From a virus: a stretch of 6,185 nt of DNA. Every line of letters begins with the position of its first letter. Within the stretch, counting starts at the first letter, position 1. The translations under genes and the position numbers were made by a program. Location of the stretch: positions 1 through 6,185 of the IMG/VR virus record IMGVR_UViG_3300045988_003412; one strand, 5' to 3'. Of the stretch, positions 1 through 6,185 are shown in pieces. A model generated the notes under the pieces. The model did no database searches. It was not told the origin of the DNA and was given only the letters and a program-made list of their open reading frames with translations.

Positions 1-55
1 CCAGCAGGATTACGAACAGATGAATTACTAATACCATCAGTAGCACGAGCAAGAA
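1..55. repeat. Terminal direct repeat, copy 1 (identical to 6131..6185); assembly overlap of a circular genome
   Basis: Read directly: 'ccagcaggattacgaacagatgaattactaataccatcagtagcacgagcaagaa' occurs at 1-55 and again at 6131-6185 with no mismatch. The VP1 reading frame stays in phase across the implied junction: 7032-6081 = 951, which is divisible by 3. Confidence 0.97.
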
Positions 56-920: not shown

Positions 921-2741
921 TTAAACCATACGGTTAAAAATATTATTAGCATCATTAAGCTTTTTGTGCTTAATCATATCGCGACAGAAGGTAGCAGCAC
1001 GGAAATCAAGACATTTTTGTAAGTCGCTACTTTGCCTACTATCATAGGCACTTCTTGTATCGGGTTTCGCGGATTTGATGTAATTACAAGCCGCGAGAGG
1101 TGGGATTCTGGGGTCATCAAACGGAACGTGTATCTGTTCTTTAACGGGACGAATAAATCCGTCTGCATATTCTCCGTCTTCACCGATACCAATGGTTGCC
1201 ATTTCGCACCCTTCGGCTGGTAAATAGAAATACCGAAGCATAGGGGCTGGCAGAGTCTGCTGTATTCGCAACGAATCACACATTCGTACATAATCCGCTT
1301 TCTTTTCATATTCTATGCCTGTTTTAATGATAAACCGAATACGACCGGCATAAGTACTAATATCAGAACCGAAGGAAGGCAAATGCCAATTACAGAAGAA
1401 TTTAAAGACATATAAGAACAGCCGATATAATTTATTAATATAAGATTCAATATCGACATCACTAGAACAGTTGCAGAACCTAGTAAGACACCGAGAAGCA
1501 TGTAATATAATCTTATCATCATCAGTAAGAATAGAATTAGCTTTAAGATATTGATAATAAGTACGAACAAGACTCAAGACTGAATCCTGTTTGTAGTCGA
1601 TGAATCCATATTTTGCAATTCTCTGCGGCGTTCTGTGCACAGCGCAAAGAATTCGAGCAATCGCAGTACTATCGTCATTGCGAGCAGACGAGAATCGGGG
1701 TAATAAGGTACGCATATACGACACGGGTGGAGTTGACCGAACAGTGATGCCGTTGAAATTATAGATTCTTCCGTTAACGACAGAATCGATTTTTTGCTCA
1801 ATCTGCGCATAAGAGTCCTCGTCTTCAACGAAATCACAACCTTTTTCAAAGAATCCAAGAGATGCTCTCGAGCGGGGTCTAAATGCGCGGCATGAGCGAT
1901 ATAATGAGGGAGCAGAACTAAGGCTGTTAACGTAACTCGCAACGTACGAGCTAGCTCCACCAGCGGCACGTTGGAAATCTGAACGACCGAGCTTCCAACT
2001 CTTAGCGTGACAGTATCGTAAAACCTCGGCGACTTCCTCCGAGTTTGTGAATAATAAGAGATGATAATGCGGGCGAAAATGGACGGGTCCGTACTCACCC
2101 ACAGCGTAGAAACATAATGGTTCATAAGATCCTAATTTTAAAGACAAATGTTTACGTAAGCGCTTAATATAATTCTGAACATCAACATAATTCAGGAAGG
2201 GAATAAGGTTATCACGACCGTATTGCGCAGAAGCGGGATAGTCCGTTTTGTCAACGGCTTGCGTTTTACCGATAAAACTACGAATAGCATCCATACTAAG
2301 AAACCAATTATCCCTAACAGGGACATACTCCTTAATCTCACGGTCAAACGGAACAGTGCCCTGAACCTGTTCGAAAAAAATATGACGCAGCGCGGAGTTA
2401 TCATTACATTGATACTCGGAAACAGGGATATATTTATGATATTCATTACCAAAATGAATATCTCCTGAGATGCCTACAACGTCCTCATATTCACTATGCA
2501 GGACTTTACAATTAAATAGAGGAATATGTTCGTTATCATACGTAAGCGTCACAAAATAAGAATACTTAAATGCACTTCCAGCGGTCTTCACACGCATGGA
2601 CGCCTTTTGAGCACGCTTATGAATACAATAATCACATTGACCACAATCCACGGCAATGCGTGCACCAGTGTAACGATTAGTAATAAACGAACGATGCTGA
2701 CAATGATCAGCCGCTTTCAGTAAATCAGGAGAAAATTTCAT
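921..2741 (-). CDS. VP4: Replication initiation protein VP4 (HUH rolling-circle endonuclease, phiX174 gpA-like), 606 aa
   Basis: 606-aa ORF with ATG at 2741-2739 and TAA at 923-921. N-terminal Cys cluster CGQCDYCIHKR (aa 33-43). RCR motif I FVTLTY (aa 63-68). HUH motif RPHYHLLLF (H225-Y226-H227, codons verified at 2069-2061). Two-tyrosine motif III SYVASYVNS (Y266 and Y270, TAC codons verified at 1946-1944 and 1934-1932), which closely matches the phiX174 gpA active site YVAKYVNK. Confidence 0.95.
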   Translation of the reverse strand: MKFSPDLLKAADHCQHRSFITNRYTGARIAVDCGQCDYCIHKRAQKASMRVKTAGSAFKYSYFVTLTYDNEHIPLFNCKVLHSEYEDVVGISGDIHFGNEYHKYIPVSEYQCNDNSALRHIFFEQVQGTVPFDREIKEYVPVRDNWFLSMDAIRSFIGKTQAVDKTDYPASAQYGRDNLIPFLNYVDVQNYIKRLRKHLSLKLGSYEPLCFYAVGEYGPVHFRPHYHLLLFTNSEEVAEVLRYCHAKSWKLGRSDFQRAAGGASSYVASYVNSLSSAPSLYRSCRAFRPRSRASLGFFEKGCDFVEDEDSYAQIEQKIDSVVNGRIYNFNGITVRSTPPVSYMRTLLPRFSSARNDDSTAIARILCAVHRTPQRIAKYGFIDYKQDSVLSLVRTYYQYLKANSILTDDDKIILHASRCLTRFCNCSSDVDIESYINKLYRLFLYVFKFFCNWHLPSFGSDISTYAGRIRFIIKTGIEYEKKADYVRMCDSLRIQQTLPAPMLRYFYLPAEGCEMATIGIGEDGEYADGFIRPVKEQIHVPFDDPRIPPLAACNYIKSAKPDTRSAYDSRQSSDLQKCLDFRAATFCRDMIKHKKLNDANNIFNRMV

Positions 2742-3132: not shown

Positions 3133-3316
3133 TTCCTTGAGTTTTAAGTTCAACAAAATTATTTTCCTCTTCAATCGAATCCACAATAACAATAAGACCC
3201 ATCGGAGAAATTCGCTCAGAATAATTTCCAAGACCATCGAGAGAATTAACGATATAAGGCGAAATAACATCACGGCCAGTGTTTTTTTCTTTAACTGAGA
3301 TAATAAACTTTTGCAT
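3122..3316 (-). CDS. Hypothetical 64-aa acidic protein, first gene after the promoter-like region
   Basis: Internal ATG of the 84-aa track ORF at 3316-3314 (verified 'cat'). Protein: MQKFIISVKEKNTGRDVISPYIVNSLDGLGNYSERISPMGLIVIVDSIEEENNFVELKTQGNEK. The composition is not low-complexity, and third codon positions are T-rich as in the other genes. I recognise no family. Confidence 0.6.
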   Translation of the reverse strand: MQKFIISVKEKNTGRDVISPYIVNSLDGLGNYSERISPMGLIVIVDSIEEENNFVELKTQGNEK

Positions 3317-3365
3317 AATTGTAAATTTTAAAAAATTAATAATAGTTGTAACTTCTAACTGGGAG

Positions 3366-3396
3366 CAAATATACAAACTATTTTCATAATTACAAA
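3366..3396 (-). promoter_or_regulatory. Candidate Bacteroidetes-type promoter: -33 TTTG (3396-3393) and -7 TAnnTTTG (TATATTTG, 3373-3366)
   Basis: The coding strand reads ttcTTTTGtaattatgaaaatagtttgTATATTTGctccc, with 19 nt between the two elements. It lies in an extremely AT-rich stretch (9/60 GC by hand count at 3301-3360), ~50 nt upstream of the first ATG (3316). The match is to the published Bacteroides sigma-ABfr consensus as I remember it. Motif matches in AT-rich DNA arise easily by chance. Confidence 0.35.
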
Positions 3397-3462
3397 AGAA
3401 AACTATTTTTTTAGATTCTACCGTAGAGTGTGAGTTGTGCGTTTATGGACAAGGGAAAGGAG

Positions 3463-3485
3463 AAATCGAGAGGATAACTCGATTT
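3463..3485. repeat. Perfect inverted repeat / stem-loop: aaatcgag [aggataa] ctcgattt (8 bp stem, 7-nt loop)
   Basis: Paired base by base: 3463-3470 with 3485-3478. It may be enclosed by a longer-range 6-bp pairing of ttgtgc+g (3436-3441) with cgcaca (3491-3496). Confidence 0.8.
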
Positions 3486-3551
3486 TGCTTCGCACACAAC
3501 TAGGGGCTTCGCTTAATTAACAAGTGGATGCATACAAAGGTGTATAGGCAC

Positions 3552-3574
3552 GGCAAGGCAGGAACTGTCTTGCC
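3552..3574. repeat. Stem-loop: ggcaaggcag [gaa] ctgtcttgcc (10 pairs including one G-T, GAA triloop on the + strand, TTC on the coding strand)
   Basis: Paired base by base: 3552-3561 with 3574-3565. The only non-Watson-Crick pair is g3558/t3568. The apex is cagGAActg. Confidence 0.8.
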
Positions 3575-3600
3575 TTTGCGCACCTGCGTGCTAAAATACC

Positions 3601-3615
3601 GAAGCGGAACGCTTC
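3601..3615. repeat. Perfect stem-loop: gaagcg [gaa] cgcttc (6 bp, GAA triloop); an alternative extended imperfect hairpin spans ~3604-3634
   Basis: Paired base by base: 3601-3606 with 3615-3610. The apex gcgGAAcgc shares the pentamer GGAAC with the 3552-3574 hairpin. The competing fold is gcggaacgcttc / gaagtcgctccgc, with one mismatch and one bulge. Confidence 0.8.
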
Positions 3616-3650
3616 TCTAAGGAAGTCGCTCCGCTCCATATTTCGATCAG

Positions 3651-3697
3651 GCCCTACGCGGGCGGCGGGTGTATATCGCTCAAACGCCGCGATGGGC
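3651..3697. repeat. GC-rich imperfect inverted repeat just downstream of the VP2 stop (gccc ta cgcgg... / ...ccgcg at gggc; alternative perfect 6-bp register gcggcg/cgccgc)
   Basis: One register has 4 bp (3651-3654 with 3697-3694), a 2x2 internal loop, then 5 bp (3657-3661 with 3691-3687). The alternative register is 3662-3667 with 3690-3685. No U/T tract follows on the coding strand, so it is not a canonical intrinsic terminator. Confidence 0.6.
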
Positions 3698-3715
3698 TTT
3701 TAGTCCTGAAGCATG

Positions 3716-4837
3716 CTATCTACTCTTAGTACCGATTGAATTGCCAATACCTTGGAATATACGTGTACCATAATCCACAGCATTACGTAACTCATAAGAA
3801 TCAACGTCTTTCTGTTTATGCTTAGAAGACCATTTATAATAATCACGAACAGCCTTTTCTTTAGAATACTCCATATTCTTAAGAACATTCATATTCTTAG
3901 AATCCCATAATGAACCTAGACCACGAGCACGATTAGACTGAATATTTGCATAAATCAGAGAATCAGCAGTCTGAGAAGCAATCCTATTGTTAATCCGGAT
4001 ACCATTGGTTTCAGCGGCAGTCTTAACAGCTTTAGCCATTTCAGATTTATATTGAGCTTCAGTCAGAGAACCTTGTGCATACAGATTAGCAAGCGTCTGA
4101 CCTTTAATAAACAAATCAGCTTGCTGTTGCTCATCAAGATATTTATTAAGTACCTGTTGAGCTTCAGAATCAAGCAAAATTTGTGCCTCTTGGGCCGAAG
4201 TAAGACGACCTGCAAACTCCATATTCTTAAGCTCCTGATATTCCTTAGACTGATCTAGGAGCGCAGAACGTCTACCGGTAGAAGCATTCCAATAACCAGA
4301 TTGACCGACACCGATATTACGATAGTTCGTATCACCAAGAATCTGGTTAATACGATAAGGGGTAAGAGCAGCATTTTGCTCAGCGTTCATCATAGAAGCA
4401 CGAGCCTGAGCCATAGAAGCAAGAGCAGTACCAATATCAGAAAAATCAGGCCGGAAAGCTTGTAAACTAGGCATACCAGCAGCAGAAGCAGCAACACCGC
4501 CTGAAGCAGGGGACTTCGAGCCAGCCATGGCAGCAGAGCCTTGAACAAATGGATTAAGACCGCGAGAAATCATAGCATTAGGAGAGTTATAAGAATTATT
4601 CATTCCCCACATCTTTTCTTGCCAATTTCGTTGAATCTGAGCTTGCTCAGCGTTAAACGCATTATTCTCACGATTAATATCAATACTGGTCTGATTGGTC
4701 TTGTTTTGAGATGATGCACCAATAGCATTACCTGCAAGAGACGCACCGGCAGCAATGATACCACCAAGTACAAGCGGAGCAATATGCTTTTCAGAGAGCC
4801 CCATTAAGGGGCTTTCTCCAATATCATAAAATCTCAT
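3716..4837 (-). CDS. VP2: Minor capsid / DNA pilot protein VP2 (phiX174 H-like), 373 aa
   Basis: 373-aa ORF with TAG at 3718-3716. Its ATG at 4837 overlaps the upstream gene's stop as ATGA (4837-4834). It has a Gly/Ala-rich hydrophobic N-terminal segment (LVLGGIIAAGASLAGNAIGA). This is followed by NRENNAFNAEQAQIQRNWQEKMWGMNNSYNSPNAMISRGLNPFV, which resembles the conserved VP2 block (N..A..Q..FQE.M......P......AGLNP). The C-terminal half is long and Q/A/E/K-rich, looking coiled-coil. Position after VP1 and the scaffold-like gene is as expected. Confidence 0.85.
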   Translation of the reverse strand: MRFYDIGESPLMGLSEKHIAPLVLGGIIAAGASLAGNAIGASSQNKTNQTSIDINRENNAFNAEQAQIQRNWQEKMWGMNNSYNSPNAMISRGLNPFVQGSAAMAGSKSPASGGVAASAAGMPSLQAFRPDFSDIGTALASMAQARASMMNAEQNAALTPYRINQILGDTNYRNIGVGQSGYWNASTGRRSALLDQSKEYQELKNMEFAGRLTSAQEAQILLDSEAQQVLNKYLDEQQQADLFIKGQTLANLYAQGSLTEAQYKSEMAKAVKTAAETNGIRINNRIASQTADSLIYANIQSNRARGLGSLWDSKNMNVLKNMEYSKEKAVRDYYKWSSKHKQKDVDSYELRNAVDYGTRIFQGIGNSIGTKSR

Positions 4838-5289: not shown

Positions 5290-6185
5290 TTAATAGGGTA
5301 AACCATTTCTATCCAAATTCTGCACAGCATATACTTGGAAATTAACATTACACAACAACTGGTCAAAGGCAACAGAGCAATTCGAAGCACCAACTTGAGG
5401 AACAAAAATAGAATTCAATTGCTGAGGACGAACCTTCATAGACTGATAAGACCAAGCACCGGAAGAAGTCAACACCTGCCAGCCATCAAGAGGAGCAACC
5501 CAAGACTGATAAGCAGCACCAGCACGAAAACCAGCGTGGACGGTATCAATATTAGATTTCCACTGCCAATACCGAAGATTATAACCAAGAGAACCGGAAA
5601 CATTTCGTCCAGGGTTATTCTGAAGGTTCAAAGCAGGAACAGCCTGCATACCAAGCTGGTCAAATGCAGGTTGCGGAAAATCAGAGATAGCAGTCACAGT
5701 CAATTGAGGATTTTGACCAGTCAAATTCCAATCTAACATAGGTACGGCATGATATACACACATGATTACCTGATGCTCAGCGCCACAATCATAAGTAATA
5801 GTATGTCCTGAATTACTAGATATGCCTTTGCCGGCAATAGAAGCCTGAGAAGAGTCAGTATCAAGATTAGTATTAACTACTTCATTAATATTAATGACAC
5901 TAGACCAACCTCCAATATAGTGACAATGATTGCCCATATATTCAGGGGCTTTAATACCAAATTGGGCGGCCATCTGGTCCGAATAGTCCTTACTAGAGAA
6001 TTGTACTACTTCTTTCCAGCGCTGGAGGTATTCTGTGGCACGAATTGAAAGAGCGGAAAGGTCAGTATTGACACGAAGCAATCTATCAGAAGTAGTAGAG
6101 TTGGTTGAAGTTGTTTGAACAGTATTACCGCCAGCAGGATTACGAACAGATGAATTACTAATACCATCAGTAGCACGAGCAAGAA
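5290..6185 (-). CDS. VP1: Major capsid protein VP1, C-terminal part (unique sequence 5290-6130; 6131-6185 duplicates 1-55)
   Basis: The track ORF 5290-6081 starts at a TTG only because of the ORF-calling rule. I translated 6082-6185 in the same frame and found it open (…RATDGISNSSVRNPAGGNTVQTTSTNSTTSDR/LLRVNTDLSAL…). It joins in phase to 902-1. Joined length is 902 + 841 = 1743 nt, giving 580 aa plus TAA (5292-5290). It contains SIRATEYLQRWKEVVQFSSKDYSDQMAAQFGIK and MCVYHAVPMLDW, typical C-terminal VP1 blocks. Confidence 0.93.
   Translation of the reverse strand, partial: LARATDGISNSSVRNPAGGNTVQTTSTNSTTSDRLLRVNTDLSALSIRATEYLQRWKEVVQFSSKDYSDQMAAQFGIKAPEYMGNHCHYIGGWSSVININEVVNTNLDTDSSQASIAGKGISSNSGHTITYDCGAEHQVIMCVYHAVPMLDWNLTGQNPQLTVTAISDFPQPAFDQLGMQAVPALNLQNNPGRNVSGSLGYNLRYWQWKSNIDTVHAGFRAGAAYQSWVAPLDGWQVLTSSGAWSYQSMKVRPQQLNSIFVPQVGASNCSVAFDQLLCNVNFQVYAVQNLDRNGLPY
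6131..6185. repeat. Terminal direct repeat, copy 2 (identical to 1..55)
   Basis: Exact 55/55 identity with the window start; see copy 1. Confidence 0.97.

What the first reader, a model, noticed from the sequence alone, without database searches (positions are those of the whole stretch)
3421..3715. Compositional island: the single long spacer is GC-rich and packed with stem-loops, two sharing a GGAAC (coding-strand GTTCC) apex
The genome is AT-rich and almost gap-free, yet about 300 nt between the VP2 stop and the promoter-like region reaches ~57-62% GC in my hand-counted windows. I verified several hairpins base by base: 3463-3485 (8 bp), 3552-3574 (10 pairs), 3601-3615 (6 bp, with a competing longer fold to 3634) and 3651-3697 (GC-rich, two registers). 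The 3552 and 3601 stems are both capped by a G-C closed GAA triloop, so both present the same pentamer GGAAC at the apex, which suggests a repeated protein-recognition element. In ssDNA phages such hairpins in the packaged strand are known to serve as complementary-strand origins. Examples are the phiX174 PriA-dependent primosome assembly site and the G4 primase-recognised hairpins, both in the F-G intergenic region. The region could also act as the transcription terminator closing a genome-length operon. A further possibility is the attachment region used by temperate Bacteroidales microviruses, which are proposed to integrate via host XerC/D. A structured ncRNA cannot be excluded.
Basis: partly seen in the sequence, partly recalled or inferred. 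Interest (0 to 1): 0.65.

Follow-up and report, generated by a model that had tools for sequence, protein, structure and literature searches.

The report
Conserved hairpin-rich replication region of microvirus
The only long non-coding stretch of this gut microvirus is a strongly conserved 284-base cluster of hairpins on the packaged DNA strand, and it most likely serves as the phage's replication-origin region, whose last ~97 bases are a three-armed module found in every Rep lineage of related microviruses examined here.

Summary
Window 3421-3715 has the highest GC of any 295-nt stretch in the genome (51.5% against 40.3%; 57-59% only in 3551-3715).

The real unit is a 284-nt non-coding block, 3711..3428 on the coding (- strand, presumably packaged) strand. 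It lies between the VP2 stop and the genome's only Bacteroidetes-type promoter (3396..3366).

The block occurs in 34 GenBank and 102 IMG/VR microvirus genomes. It shows long invariant stretches and 23 base pairs with compensatory changes. The shared GGAAC apex is not conserved, because both loops vary in relatives.

The 3' 97 nt (3520..3424) form a three-way junction. Covariance models found it once per genome, on the coding strand, in 80 of 84 genomes from other Rep lineages (Rep 26-41% identical). There were no hits in 0.74 Mb of bacterial DNA or in plasmids.

The region is rich in C-GNA-G "mini-hairpin DNA" motifs: 12.4 per kb on the coding strand against 0.6 per kb on the other strand. This motif class is known from the G4, St-1 and alpha3 priming sites.

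Best reading is a single-stranded-DNA replication region: a complementary-strand origin, probably with the Rep nick site and a terminator. No dif-like site, Rfam family or prophage was found. A function as RNA is not excluded.

The parts
3428..3711 (-). Conserved non-coding block (284 nt) between the VP2 stop (3716-3718) and the promoter; the real extent of the feature
   Evidence: Conservation profile over 106 relatives and alignments A1 and A2. 93.6% of cells are paired, 23 pairs have compensatory changes, and 0 of 500 shuffles reach the observed values. Most indels are not multiples of 3 and no reading frame is conserved.
3646..3711 (-). 5' domain, found at sequence level only in the Rep lineage with at least 60% identity
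   Evidence: An nhmmer profile of the whole block finds no match to profile positions below 137 in 84 genomes of other Rep lineages. The 34 GenBank records with the block equal in number the 34 records with Rep at least 60% identical.
3675..3693 (-). Hairpin H2 (ATCGC...GCGAT)
   Evidence: 100% paired; one pair switches among G:C, A:T and C:G in 11 sequences.
3665..3677 (-). Invariant GATATACACCCGC ('Box 1'), starting in the 3' arm of H2; candidate Rep nick or recognition site
   Evidence: Invariant columns in A1 and A2. Related motifs sit directly after a stem in other lineages: GGTTATACACCT (clade 2) and CTTGATATCG (clades C3 and C4). The assignment is an inference.
3648..3663 (-). Hairpin H3 (GCCC-GCGTA-GGGC) followed by the nearly invariant CTG
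   Evidence: C56T and G62A co-occur in L003, L019, L102 and L109. H3 is 100% paired, whereas the alternative pairing with 3697-3694 has 5 broken cells, 4 of them in these four sequences.
3628..3634 (-). Mini-hairpin motif GCGGAGC (GCGAAGC in some relatives)
   Evidence: The C:G closing pair and the G and A of the loop are invariant; the middle loop base varies.
3591..3615 (-).
   Evidence: The only terminator-like site in 3250-3800. The stem covaries, loop bases vary, the GGTAnTTTAGC tail is invariant, and the hairpin is absent in 5 of 95 relatives. A competing longer fold, 3637..3601, is also mostly compatible.
3580..3591 (-). Hairpin H5 (GCAC-GCAG-GTGC)
   Evidence: 100% paired; A:T is replaced by G:C in 25 sequences. 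The loop is GNAG, or the triloop GGA or AGA.
3548..3579 (-).
   Evidence: Outer pairs are conserved or covary. The apical part has indels and a variable loop, so the GTTCC apex is not conserved.
3539..3546 (-). 'Box 2' TATACACC, a second copy of the Box 1 core, just upstream of the 3' domain
   Evidence: TATA is invariant and the rest nearly so. Counterparts are GCTATACCCCT (clade 2) and CCCTATATACCCC (clade C4), directly upstream of their 3' domains.
3424..3520 (-). 3' domain: a 97-nt three-way junction made of mini-hairpin M1, closing helix H7, mini-hairpin M2, hairpin H9 and a 22-nt unpaired tract
   Evidence: 98.3% paired, 12 of 20 pairs compensatory. Model R1 hits 67 of 84 genomes of other Rep lineages, once each, on the coding strand. 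Model R2 adds 12 more plus L237. 99.9% paired and 16 of 20 pairs compensatory in the distant set. No hits in 0.74 Mb of bacterial DNA.
3506..3512 (-). Mini-hairpin M1 GCGAAGC
   Evidence: Variants are GCGGAGC and ACGAAGT, the latter with a compensatory outer pair.
3487..3493 (-). Mini-hairpin M2 GCGAAGC
   Evidence: The outer pair switches among G:C, C:G and A:T in 31 sequences, and the C:G pair next to the loop is kept. Loops are GAA, GGA, GTA or GAAA.
3494..3501 (-). 5' arm of the long-range helix H7
   Evidence: Pairs with 3440..3433. Three pairs are compensatory within the window's lineage, and the helix is fully re-coded in other lineages, for example ATTTCTA/TAGAAAT in L235.
3433..3440 (-). 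3' arm of helix H7, followed by the invariant CACAC
   Evidence: The invariant T.G wobble (3494 with 3440) indicates that the coding strand is the one that folds.
3463..3485 (-).
   Evidence: 7 of 8 pairs are compensatory; the loop core GTTATC is nearly invariant.
3441..3462 (-). Unpaired junction strand: a C/T-rich tract followed by the conserved CTTGTCCATAAAC
   Evidence: CTTGTC and ATA.AC are kept in every lineage examined (CTTGTCTTATATAC, CTTGTCATATATAC, CTTGCCTTATTTTAG).
3366..3396 (-). Bacteroidetes-type promoter TTTG-N19-TATATTTG, flanking the element but not part of the fold
   Evidence: The only match to TTTGN{17,23}TANNTTTG in the window on either strand; 0.26 expected by chance. Both TTTG boxes are invariant in A1.

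Best explanation
The spacer is the phage's cis-acting replication region, and it acts as folded single-stranded DNA of the packaged (coding-sense) strand. It plays the role that the intergenic region plays in filamentous phages, and that the F-G spacer plays in G4 and phiX174.

Proposed mechanism:
1. After the ssDNA circle enters a Bacteroidota cell, host SSB coats it.
2. The hairpin cluster stays folded. The C-GNA-G mini-hairpins and the 97-nt three-way junction (3520..3424) form an SSB-free landmark.
3. A host priming enzyme (primase, PriA primosome or RNA polymerase) starts complementary-strand synthesis at that landmark.
4. The lineage-specific 5' half, with the invariant GATATACACCC box just after a stem, probably carries the recognition and nick site of the phiX174-like two-tyrosine Rep.
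5. The hairpin at 3615..3601 plus its T-rich tail ends the genome-length transcript that starts at the promoter 3396..3366.

What is shown: the element, its structure, the folding strand, its distribution, its motif content, and its position relative to the promoter and terminator-like sites.

What is inferred: that it acts as DNA, which enzyme reads it, and which module serves which origin.
For: 1. Strong selection on structure. In the block 93.6% of cells are paired, 23 pairs are compensatory, and 0 of 500 shuffles reach this; slid controls give 25-45% paired. The 3' domain is 98.3% paired in the window's lineage and 99.9% in the distant set.
2. The folding strand is the coding strand. G.T cells outnumber A.C cells 98 to 6 and 11 to 0.
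3. C-GNA-G and C-GNNA-G mini-hairpin motifs occur at 12.4 per kb on the coding strand of the element, against 0.62 per kb on its other strand and 0.8-1.45 per kb elsewhere, across 95 genomes. The window has 3 in 284 nt and 3 in the remaining 5.8 kb.
4. The C:G pair next to the loop is invariant while the outer pair covaries. This fits the closing-pair rule for d(GNA) loops (PMC3201870 abstract).
5. The Hirao review (PMC13037366) places GCGAAAGC and GCGTTAGC at the primase sites of the G4, St-1 and alpha3 complementary-strand origins, and CCGAAGG in RSF1010 ssiA. It reports poor SSB binding and much lower stability of the RNA versions.
6. The 3' domain is kept at 56-63% nucleotide identity between genomes whose Rep is 26% and VP2 32% identical. 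It is present once per genome in 80 of 84 genomes of other Rep lineages. That is what one expects of a module read by a host factor.
7. The 5' half is lineage-specific, as expected for a Rep-specific part.
8. The element lies next to or downstream of terminator-like hairpins (by eye in clade 2) and upstream of the only promoter. Its 3' half should therefore be poorly transcribed.
9. Every microvirus needs a complementary-strand origin. This genome has no other non-coding stretch.
Against: - There are no experimental data. Nothing here shows priming, nicking or SSB exclusion.
- The viral DNA strand and the mRNA have the same sense, so covariation and the G.T bias fit RNA equally well.
- Folding z-scores are the same on both strands.
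- The terminator-like hairpin is missing in 5 of 95 relatives, and the clade-2 hairpin was not called by the simple scan, so read-through into the 3' domain is possible.
- phiX174-type phages keep their Rep origin inside gene A, so the (+) origin need not be in this spacer.
- The assignment of the 3' domain to the (-) origin and the 5' half to the (+) origin could be the reverse. The unpaired CTTGTCYATAWAC resembles the CTTG|ATA nick motifs of phiX174 and pC194 (from memory).
- Genomes within a lineage are related, so the motif counts are not independent.
Confidence: 0.55

Rival explanations
1. The block is a structured RNA. It would be the 3' untranslated end of the genome-length mRNA, or an RNA processed from it, acting as a stabiliser against 3' exonucleases, a regulator or a ribozyme.
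For: It has the same sense as all the genes. Covariation and G.U-type wobbles fit RNA. The RNA fold has z = -3.8. In the window's lineage the first T-rich tail comes only about 120 nt into the block, so at least the 5' domain is transcribed. Overlapping helices H1 and H2 hint at a pseudoknot or a switch.
Against: No Rfam family matches, even at E up to 10. No promoter consensus lies upstream of the 3' domain, and the only one in the genome lies downstream. The 3' domain sits beyond terminator-like hairpins. The loops are mainly C-GNA-G triloops, which are far less stable in RNA than in DNA (PMC13037366), rather than GNRA or UNCG. The H1/H2 pseudoknot would have only a 2-nt loop across a 7-bp stem, which looks sterically doubtful (my inference).
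Confidence: 0.17
2. The conserved 3' three-way junction is the viral-strand (Rep) origin rather than the complementary-strand origin. The unpaired CTTGTCYATAWAC would be the nick site, presented as single strand. The variable 5' half would hold Rep-binding or host-priming sites.
For: Rep keeps the phiX174-like motifs FRPHWHLLLF and YVASYVNS, invariant in all five aligned lineages, so a conserved nick motif is expected. CTTGTC..ATA is unpaired and conserved in every lineage and resembles CTTG|ATA of phiX174 and pC194 (from memory). In rolling-circle plasmid families the nick locus is conserved and the binding locus varies (established knowledge).
Against: The fold is asymmetric: it has an invariant T.G wobble, sheared G.A loops and a 22-nt single strand. 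That suits ssDNA but extrudes poorly from duplex DNA. Clades C3 and C4 carry an exact CTTGATAT elsewhere in their spacers, outside the 3' domain. The 20:1 strand bias of GNA motifs points to a role while the DNA is single-stranded.
Confidence: 0.15
3. The spacer is an attachment site for integration by host XerC/D, as proposed for Bacteroidales proviruses. It might act as a folded ssDNA substrate, as in CTXphi.
For: Krupovic and Forterre (PMC3091885) place the dif-like att sites of related proviruses upstream of the Rep gene, in the same part of the genome. Such a site would also depend on the host and so be conserved across Rep lineages.
Against: The best match to the bacterial dif consensus anywhere in the genome is 21 of 28, equal to the shuffled mean of 21.4, and no top match is in the spacer. 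No stem is long enough to mimic a 28-bp dif duplex. The helices covary instead of keeping a fixed sequence. The long IMG/VR contigs are concatemers, and this phage is seen only as contigs of about 6 kb. The single genome-contig scan was wasted on a pattern that was too loose, so prophages were not properly searched.
Confidence: 0.04
4. The block is only a terminator or insulator that stops transcription from running round the circle, or it is a packaging signal.
For: There is a terminator-like hairpin with a T-rich tail. The block sits at the end of the single operon.
Against: A terminator does not need 284 nt, long invariant unpaired stretches, or a three-way junction kept across lineages with 26% Rep identity. 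The terminator-like hairpin is the one part that some relatives have lost. No separate packaging signal is known in Microviridae, where packaging is coupled to Rep-driven synthesis (established knowledge).
Confidence: 0.05

Closest known systems
Primase-dependent complementary-strand origins of G4, St-1 and alpha3 (hairpins in the F-G intergenic region)
   Same: Microviridae; an intergenic cluster of stable hairpins on the packaged strand. GCGNAGC and GCGNNAGC mini-hairpin DNA motifs are present, as at the G4, St-1 and alpha3 priming sites (PMC13037366). The orientation bias is strong and strand-specific.
   Different: I did not run a direct comparison with the G4 origin and expect no sequence homology. 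The element here is about twice as long and has a long-range three-way junction instead of three simple hairpins. The host is Bacteroidota, whose primase specificity is unknown. Priming is untested.
Intergenic region of filamentous phages (M13, f1, fd)
   Same: The single large non-coding region of an otherwise tightly packed ssDNA phage genome, lying after a terminator. It is made of several hairpins that together hold the (-) origin, the (+) origin and other cis signals. Rep belongs to the same Pfam family as gene II protein (PF23343).
   Different: A different virus family with no detectable sequence homology. The Ff (-) origin mimics a sigma-70 promoter, and no Bacteroidetes promoter mimic was found inside the element.
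phiX174 primosome assembly site (n'/PriA site)
   Same: A folded ssDNA landmark in an intergenic region that recruits a host priming machine. A three-way junction could mimic a fork, the kind of substrate PriA binds (inference).
   Different: The phiX174 site is about 55 nt and has no defined consensus to test. Nothing here shows PriA involvement.
Single-strand origins (ssoA type) of rolling-circle plasmids, and ssiA of RSF1010
   Same: Orientation-dependent, highly structured, non-coding ssDNA elements read by host enzymes and shared between replicons with different Reps. ssiA contains a CCGAAGG mini-hairpin.
   Different: The ssoA hallmark CS-6 (TAGCGT, from memory) does not occur in the block (coding-strand sequence printed). 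There is no match in 72,556 plasmids.
Conserved intergenic hairpins of reekeekee- and roodoodoo-microviruses (PMC9865509)
   Same: Uncultured microviruses with intergenic hairpins conserved through compensatory substitutions. The authors suggest, but could not certify, that they are negative-strand initiation sites.
   Different: Those are one or two simple hairpins of 13-64 nt in tiny genomes. Here there is a multi-domain 284-nt block, with one module shared across Rep lineages.

Membership tests
G4-type primase-dependent complementary-strand origin | Cluster of stable hairpins in an intergenic region of the packaged strand | tested here: met
   Eleven helices supported by the alignment, in the only long spacer. 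The coding strand is the folding strand.
G4-type primase-dependent complementary-strand origin | Mini-hairpin DNA motif (GCGNAGC or GCGNNAGC) at the priming hairpin | tested here: met
   Three motifs in the window's element. 12.4 per kb against 0.6 per kb on the other strand, across 95 genomes. The motif class is described in PMC13037366.
G4-type primase-dependent complementary-strand origin | Primase starts a primer at a defined trinucleotide next to the hairpin; SSB is excluded from the hairpins | not testable with these tools
   A nearly invariant CTG follows hairpin H3 (3650..3648). Bacteroidota primase specificity is unknown to me, and there is no biochemistry.
G4-type primase-dependent complementary-strand origin | Sequence homology to the G4, St-1 or alpha3 origin | not tested
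   No direct comparison was run. BLAST of the element found only this group of uncultured microviruses.
Filamentous-phage-type intergenic region | One non-coding region after a terminator holding both origins | tested here: inconclusive
   The layout matches. The presence of either origin is inferred, not shown.
ssoA-type single-strand origin | Conserved CS-6 hexamer TAGCGT in a terminal loop, and an RSB site (from memory) | tested here: not met
   TAGCGT does not occur in the coding-strand block sequence (printed). No similarity to any PLSDB plasmid.
XerC/D dif-like attachment site | 28-bp dif-like sequence (two 11-bp arms and a 6-bp spacer) | tested here: not met
   Best score is 21 of 28, equal to the shuffled mean of 21.4; no top match in the spacer.
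XerC/D dif-like attachment site | Integrated copies with the junction inside the element | tested here: inconclusive
   No prophage among IMG/VR contigs or contigs encoding the window's peptidase. The genome-contig scan returned only chance matches.
Intrinsic (rho-independent) terminator | G+C-rich hairpin followed directly by a T-run, on the transcribed strand, at the end of an operon | tested here: met
   3615..3601 plus GGTATTTTAG is the only such site in 3250-3800. The stem covaries and the tail is invariant. The hairpin is lost in 5 of 95 relatives.
Any curated RNA family (Rfam 15) | Covariance-model match | tested here: not met
   No hit within the element on the coding strand at E up to 10. 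The only overlap is a chance-level ylbH hit on the other strand (E = 3.6, 17 bits against a gathering score of 50). No tRNA or tmRNA.
phiX174/pC194-type Rep origin (nick site) | CTTG|ATA-type nick sequence recognised by a two-tyrosine HUH Rep | tested here: inconclusive
   Rep has HUH and YVASYVNS. The window has GATATAC (3677..3671) and CTTGTCCATAAAC (3453..3441). Exact CTTGATAT occurs only in clades C3 and C4. Motifs this short are expected by chance.

The most novel reading that the evidence does not exclude
The 97-nt three-way junction is a new class of host-read single-strand origin. It consists of two C-GNA-G mini-hairpins, a covarying closing helix and an unpaired CTTGTCYATAWAC strand. 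In this reading it is a fork- or promoter-mimicking ssDNA fold that recruits a Bacteroidota priming enzyme, shared by gut microviruses whatever their Rep. A still more novel alternative is that the whole 284-nt block is a new large structured phage RNA.
Probability: 0.35. Interest if true: 0.7.

Novelty: new variant of a known kind. Interest (0 to 1): 0.55.

Why it matters
To my knowledge, neither replication origin has been mapped for any microvirus outside the phiX174/G4 group, although Bacteroidota-associated microviruses are among the commonest phages of the mammalian gut. This work provides:
- a precisely bounded element with a covariation-backed structure;
- two covariance models that find its 3' module in all five Rep lineages examined;
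- concrete candidate sites for priming and for Rep nicking.

That turns the question of how these phages start complementary-strand synthesis in Bacteroidota into a set of mutational and biochemical tests. It would also help in building replicating ssDNA vectors for Bacteroides. Finally, several GenBank 'hypothetical protein' annotations that overlap the element are probably spurious.

Tried and rejected
- Rfam scan at E up to 10 and a tRNA/tmRNA scan: nothing in the element.
- Genome-contig scan with a 16-nt pattern: too loose.
- IMG/VR contigs longer than 6.5 kb: concatemers, not prophages.
- The search for related loci with the mar56 Rep alone: no relatives. With the window's Rep first in the alignment, it returned only the close lineage.
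- Plasmid searches with both versions of the element: no match.
- dif consensus scan: chance level.
- The RNAalifold long-range pairing of GGAGCGGAGC with GCGAAGCCCC, and its GCCC/GGGC pairing: rejected. The first has no covariation. The second is broken in exactly the four sequences where hairpin H3 is compensated.
- Full H1/H2 pseudoknot: H1 is only 81% paired, and the loop geometry looks too tight.
- Folding energy as a way to pick the strand: the z-scores are equal on both strands.
- Search for a k-mer shared by all lineages upstream of the 3' domain: none at k = 6-9, only pairwise shares.
- The simple terminator scan did not call the clade-2 hairpin plus T-run, because its loop exceeds 8 nt.
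- Literature searches found no description of this element.
Full report
**Context**

The window is a complete circular microvirus genome of 6130 nt; bases 1-55 repeat at 6131-6185. All genes lie on the - strand:
- the major capsid protein (Phage_F), which runs across the window ends;
- a 147-151-aa protein;
- VP2 pilot protein (4837..3716);
- small ORFs, the first starting at 3316;
- an M15 peptidase;
- a 606-aa Rep of the ORF2/G2P family.

This is the gene order of Alpavirinae-type, Bacteroidota-associated microviruses (PMC3394797). The same phage appears in human gut metagenomes only as contigs of 4.9-6.3 kb. By established knowledge of Microviridae, the packaged strand has the sense of the mRNA. 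The - strand of the window is therefore the one that exists as single-stranded DNA.

**Checking the observation**

Window 3421-3715 is 51.5% GC against 40.3% for the genome, and none of 1226 sliding 295-nt windows is higher. The 57-59% figures apply only to 3551-3715. No 100-nt window exceeds 59%.

The spacer folds better than dinucleotide shuffles. For 3377-3715 z = -3.5 as DNA and -3.8 as RNA. For the 284-nt block z = -4.4, but the opposite strand gives -4.3, so energy alone does not identify the strand.

**What is really there**

BLAST found the spacer in 34 GenBank microvirus genomes from lemur, dog and human samples, at 73-89% identity. The similarity starts at the VP2 stop, or a short variable linker after it, and ends just before the AT-rich promoter region. 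A 22-base conserved pattern found it in 102 IMG/VR contigs, nearly all microvirus genomes of about 6 kb.

The conserved block is 3711..3428. It is non-coding:
- most indels are not multiples of three;
- no frame is open across it in all relatives;
- substitutions are compensatory in stems.

A hand-drawn structure was tested on 95 non-redundant sequences. It gives 93.6% paired cells and 23 pairs with changes on both sides. None of 500 column shuffles reaches this, and slid controls give 25-45% paired.

Supported helices, in window coordinates on the - strand:
- H2, 3693..3675;
- H3, 3663..3651;
- a mini-hairpin, 3634..3628;
- the 3615..3601 hairpin;
- H5, 3591..3580;
- H6, 3579..3548;
- mini-hairpin M1, 3512..3506;
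- long-range helix H7, 3501..3494 with 3440..3433;
- mini-hairpin M2, 3493..3487;
- H9, 3485..3463.

Long unpaired stretches are invariant: GATATACACCCGC, GGTAnTTTAGC, CCGTGCCTATAC, CCCCTAGTT and CTTGTCYATAAACG.

**The GGAAC apex**

In relatives the loop of the 3615..3601 hairpin is TTC, CCC, TTT, CTC or TCC. Five of 95 sequences lack this hairpin. The apex of the 3574..3552 hairpin differs in length and sequence. The stems are selected and the apex pentamer is not, so it is not a repeated recognition element.

**A module shared across Rep lineages**

Rep similarity falls sharply outside the lineage that carries the whole block. Thirty-four GenBank records have Rep at least 60% identical, the same number as have the block. 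The next relative is at 41%, and the rest are at or below about 31% over most of the protein. These more distant genomes also have a long spacer after VP2.

A covariance model of the last 97 nt (3520..3424; 98.3% paired, 12 of 20 pairs compensatory) found one full-length hit on the coding strand in 67 of 84 such genomes. There were no hits in 0.74 Mb of unrelated bacterial DNA. A broader model added the 12 complete genomes of the Dulem-244 lineage, and L237 weakly.

In the distant set the structure is 99.9% paired, with 16 of 20 pairs compensatory. That alignment was fitted to the model, which favours the structure. Between the window and L346, Rep is 26% and VP2 32% identical, yet this module is 63% identical at nucleotide level, with many of the differences falling in the covarying stems.

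Its architecture is constant:
1. mini-hairpin GCGAAGC;
2. 5' arm of the closing helix;
3. mini-hairpin CCGAAGG or GCGAAGC;
4. a 7-8-bp hairpin with a TTAYC-type loop;
5. a pyrimidine-rich single strand ending in CTTGTC..ATA.AC;
6. 3' arm of the closing helix;
7. CACA.

The 5' two-thirds of the block is not detectable in other lineages. Those lineages have their own hairpin-rich modules with recurring pieces:
- a stem followed by (T)ATACACC, or by CTTGATATCG;
- GCGNAGCGAC;
- a TATAC(A/C)CC box just before the 3' module.

The element was found only in microviruses and not in plasmids.

**DNA or RNA?**

The viral DNA strand and the mRNA have the same sense, so covariation cannot separate them. 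G.T-type wobbles outnumber A.C cells 98 to 6 and 11 to 0, which fixes the folding strand as the coding strand. Three observations favour a role as ssDNA.

First, the hairpin loops are dominated by C-GNA-G triloops and C-GNNA-G tetraloops. The window has three GCGNAGC motifs in 284 nt and three in the other 5.8 kb. Across 95 genomes of all lineages the density is 12.4 per kb on the coding strand of the element, 0.62 per kb on its other strand and 0.8-1.45 per kb elsewhere. The C:G pair next to the loop and the G and A of the loop are fixed. The middle base varies (A, G or T) and the outer pair covaries.

This is the definition of 'mini-hairpin DNA'. The Hirao review reports it at the primase sites of the G4, St-1 and alpha3 complementary-strand origins, in RSF1010 ssiA and in N4 ssDNA promoters. 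It also notes poor SSB binding and much lower stability of the RNA versions (PMC13037366; closing-pair dependence in the PMC3201870 abstract).

Second, the only match in the genome to the Bacteroidetes promoter consensus TTTG-N17-23-TAnnTTTG lies at 3396..3366, just downstream of the element (0.26 expected). Terminator-like hairpins lie upstream of, or inside, the element. In the window this is 3615..3601 plus its T-rich tail. In clade 2 it is a hairpin plus TTTTGTTTTTTTTT directly after VP2 (seen by eye; not called by the simple scan). The 3' module should therefore be transcribed little.

Third, no Rfam family matches.

**Mechanism proposed**

On entry, SSB coats the ssDNA circle while the mini-hairpins and the three-way junction stay folded and mark the site where a host enzyme primes complementary-strand synthesis. 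The module read by a host factor is conserved across Rep lineages. The lineage-specific 5' half, with its invariant GATATACACCC box after a stem, would carry the recognition and nick site of the phiX174-like Rep (HUH FRPHWHLLLF; YVASYVNS). The 3615..3601 hairpin would end the genome-length transcript.

The steps involving enzymes are inferences. The assignment of the two origins to the two halves could be the reverse, because the unpaired CTTGTCYATAWAC resembles CTTG|ATA nick motifs.

**Rivals**

- A structured RNA remains possible, at about 0.17.
- The XerC/D attachment idea is not supported. No dif-like match beats chance, none lies in the spacer, and no integrated copy was seen. My single bacterial-genome scan used a pattern that was too loose and gave only chance hits, so prophages were not properly searched.
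- A pure terminator or packaging signal does not explain the size and the conservation across lineages.

**Comparison with what is known**

In function, the closest analogues are the G4-type complementary-strand origins and the filamentous-phage intergenic region. It is not a demonstrable member of either: I tested no homology to G4 and there is no biochemistry.

Conserved intergenic hairpins with compensatory changes have been reported in other uncultured microviruses and tentatively linked to negative-strand initiation (PMC9865509). I found no description of this element or of its three-way-junction module.

**Verdict**

I rate it a new variant of a known kind, of moderate interest. It is real, strongly selected and widespread. 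It gives testable candidates for the unmapped origins of gut microviruses, but its function is inferred.

Noticed in passing
window 3366-3396 (- strand): The only match in the genome to the Bacteroidetes promoter consensus (TTTG-N19-TATATTTG). It lies about 50 nt upstream of the first small ORF (ATG at 3316). Both TTTG boxes are invariant in relatives. This points to a Bacteroidota host and a single genome-length operon.
   Followed up: partly
L002, L013, L046 and about 12 other relatives, between the middle and 3' domains (A2 columns about 208-300); absent from the window near 3523: An optional perfect hairpin of about 35 nt, CCTAGATCTATTAGTAATGGATCTAGG, is inserted at the same spot in about 15 of 95 relatives. 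L065 instead carries three tandem 25-nt copies of CACTTTGTCAAGTCCAGGACTTA.
   Followed up: no
window 3529-3536 (- strand): An 8-bp near-palindrome, TGTATGCA (TGTATACA in most relatives), lies between Box 2 and the 3' domain. The segment containing it is missing in about 12 relatives.
   Followed up: no
L005 416-742 (PP511392 XCD03858.1); L236 3581-3784 (PP511330 XCD03224.1): GenBank 'hypothetical protein' CDSs lie over the conserved structured element. In Dulem virus 257 the CDS covers the 3' domain. They are probably spurious ORFs.
   Followed up: partly
window 921-2741 (- strand), Rep: The 606-aa Rep keeps phiX174 gpA-like motifs (FRPHWHLLLF; YVASYVNS with two tyrosines). It also has four N-terminal cysteines (C14, C33, C36, C39) that are invariant across five lineages only 27-47% identical. 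They may form a zinc-binding module.
   Followed up: no
L238 about 3655-3675; L288-L299 and L300-L306 spacers: Two other Rep lineages carry an exact CTTGATATCG, a phiX174/pC194-like nick motif, followed at once by a mini-hairpin (GGCAAAGCC, GGCGGAGCC or GCCAAAGGC). It lies upstream of their 3' domains.
   Followed up: partly
L235 (MZ089802) 3470-3800: The 593-nt spacer of Microvirus mar56 has several direct repeats upstream of its 3' domain: ATTCCCCACAGCGCAGC x2, GGAGTACGGAA x2, GCGTAGCG x2 and TCCGCAGGTGT x2. They look like iterons.
   Followed up: no
window 3406-3427 (- strand): Directly after the element there is a small hairpin, CTACGGTAG, and then a run of seven A. The hairpin sequence varies between relatives, but an A-run is always present.
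   Followed up: no
window 1-55 and 6131-6185: An exact 55-nt terminal repeat shows the window is a circular genome of 6130 nt, with the capsid gene running across the ends.
   Followed up: yes
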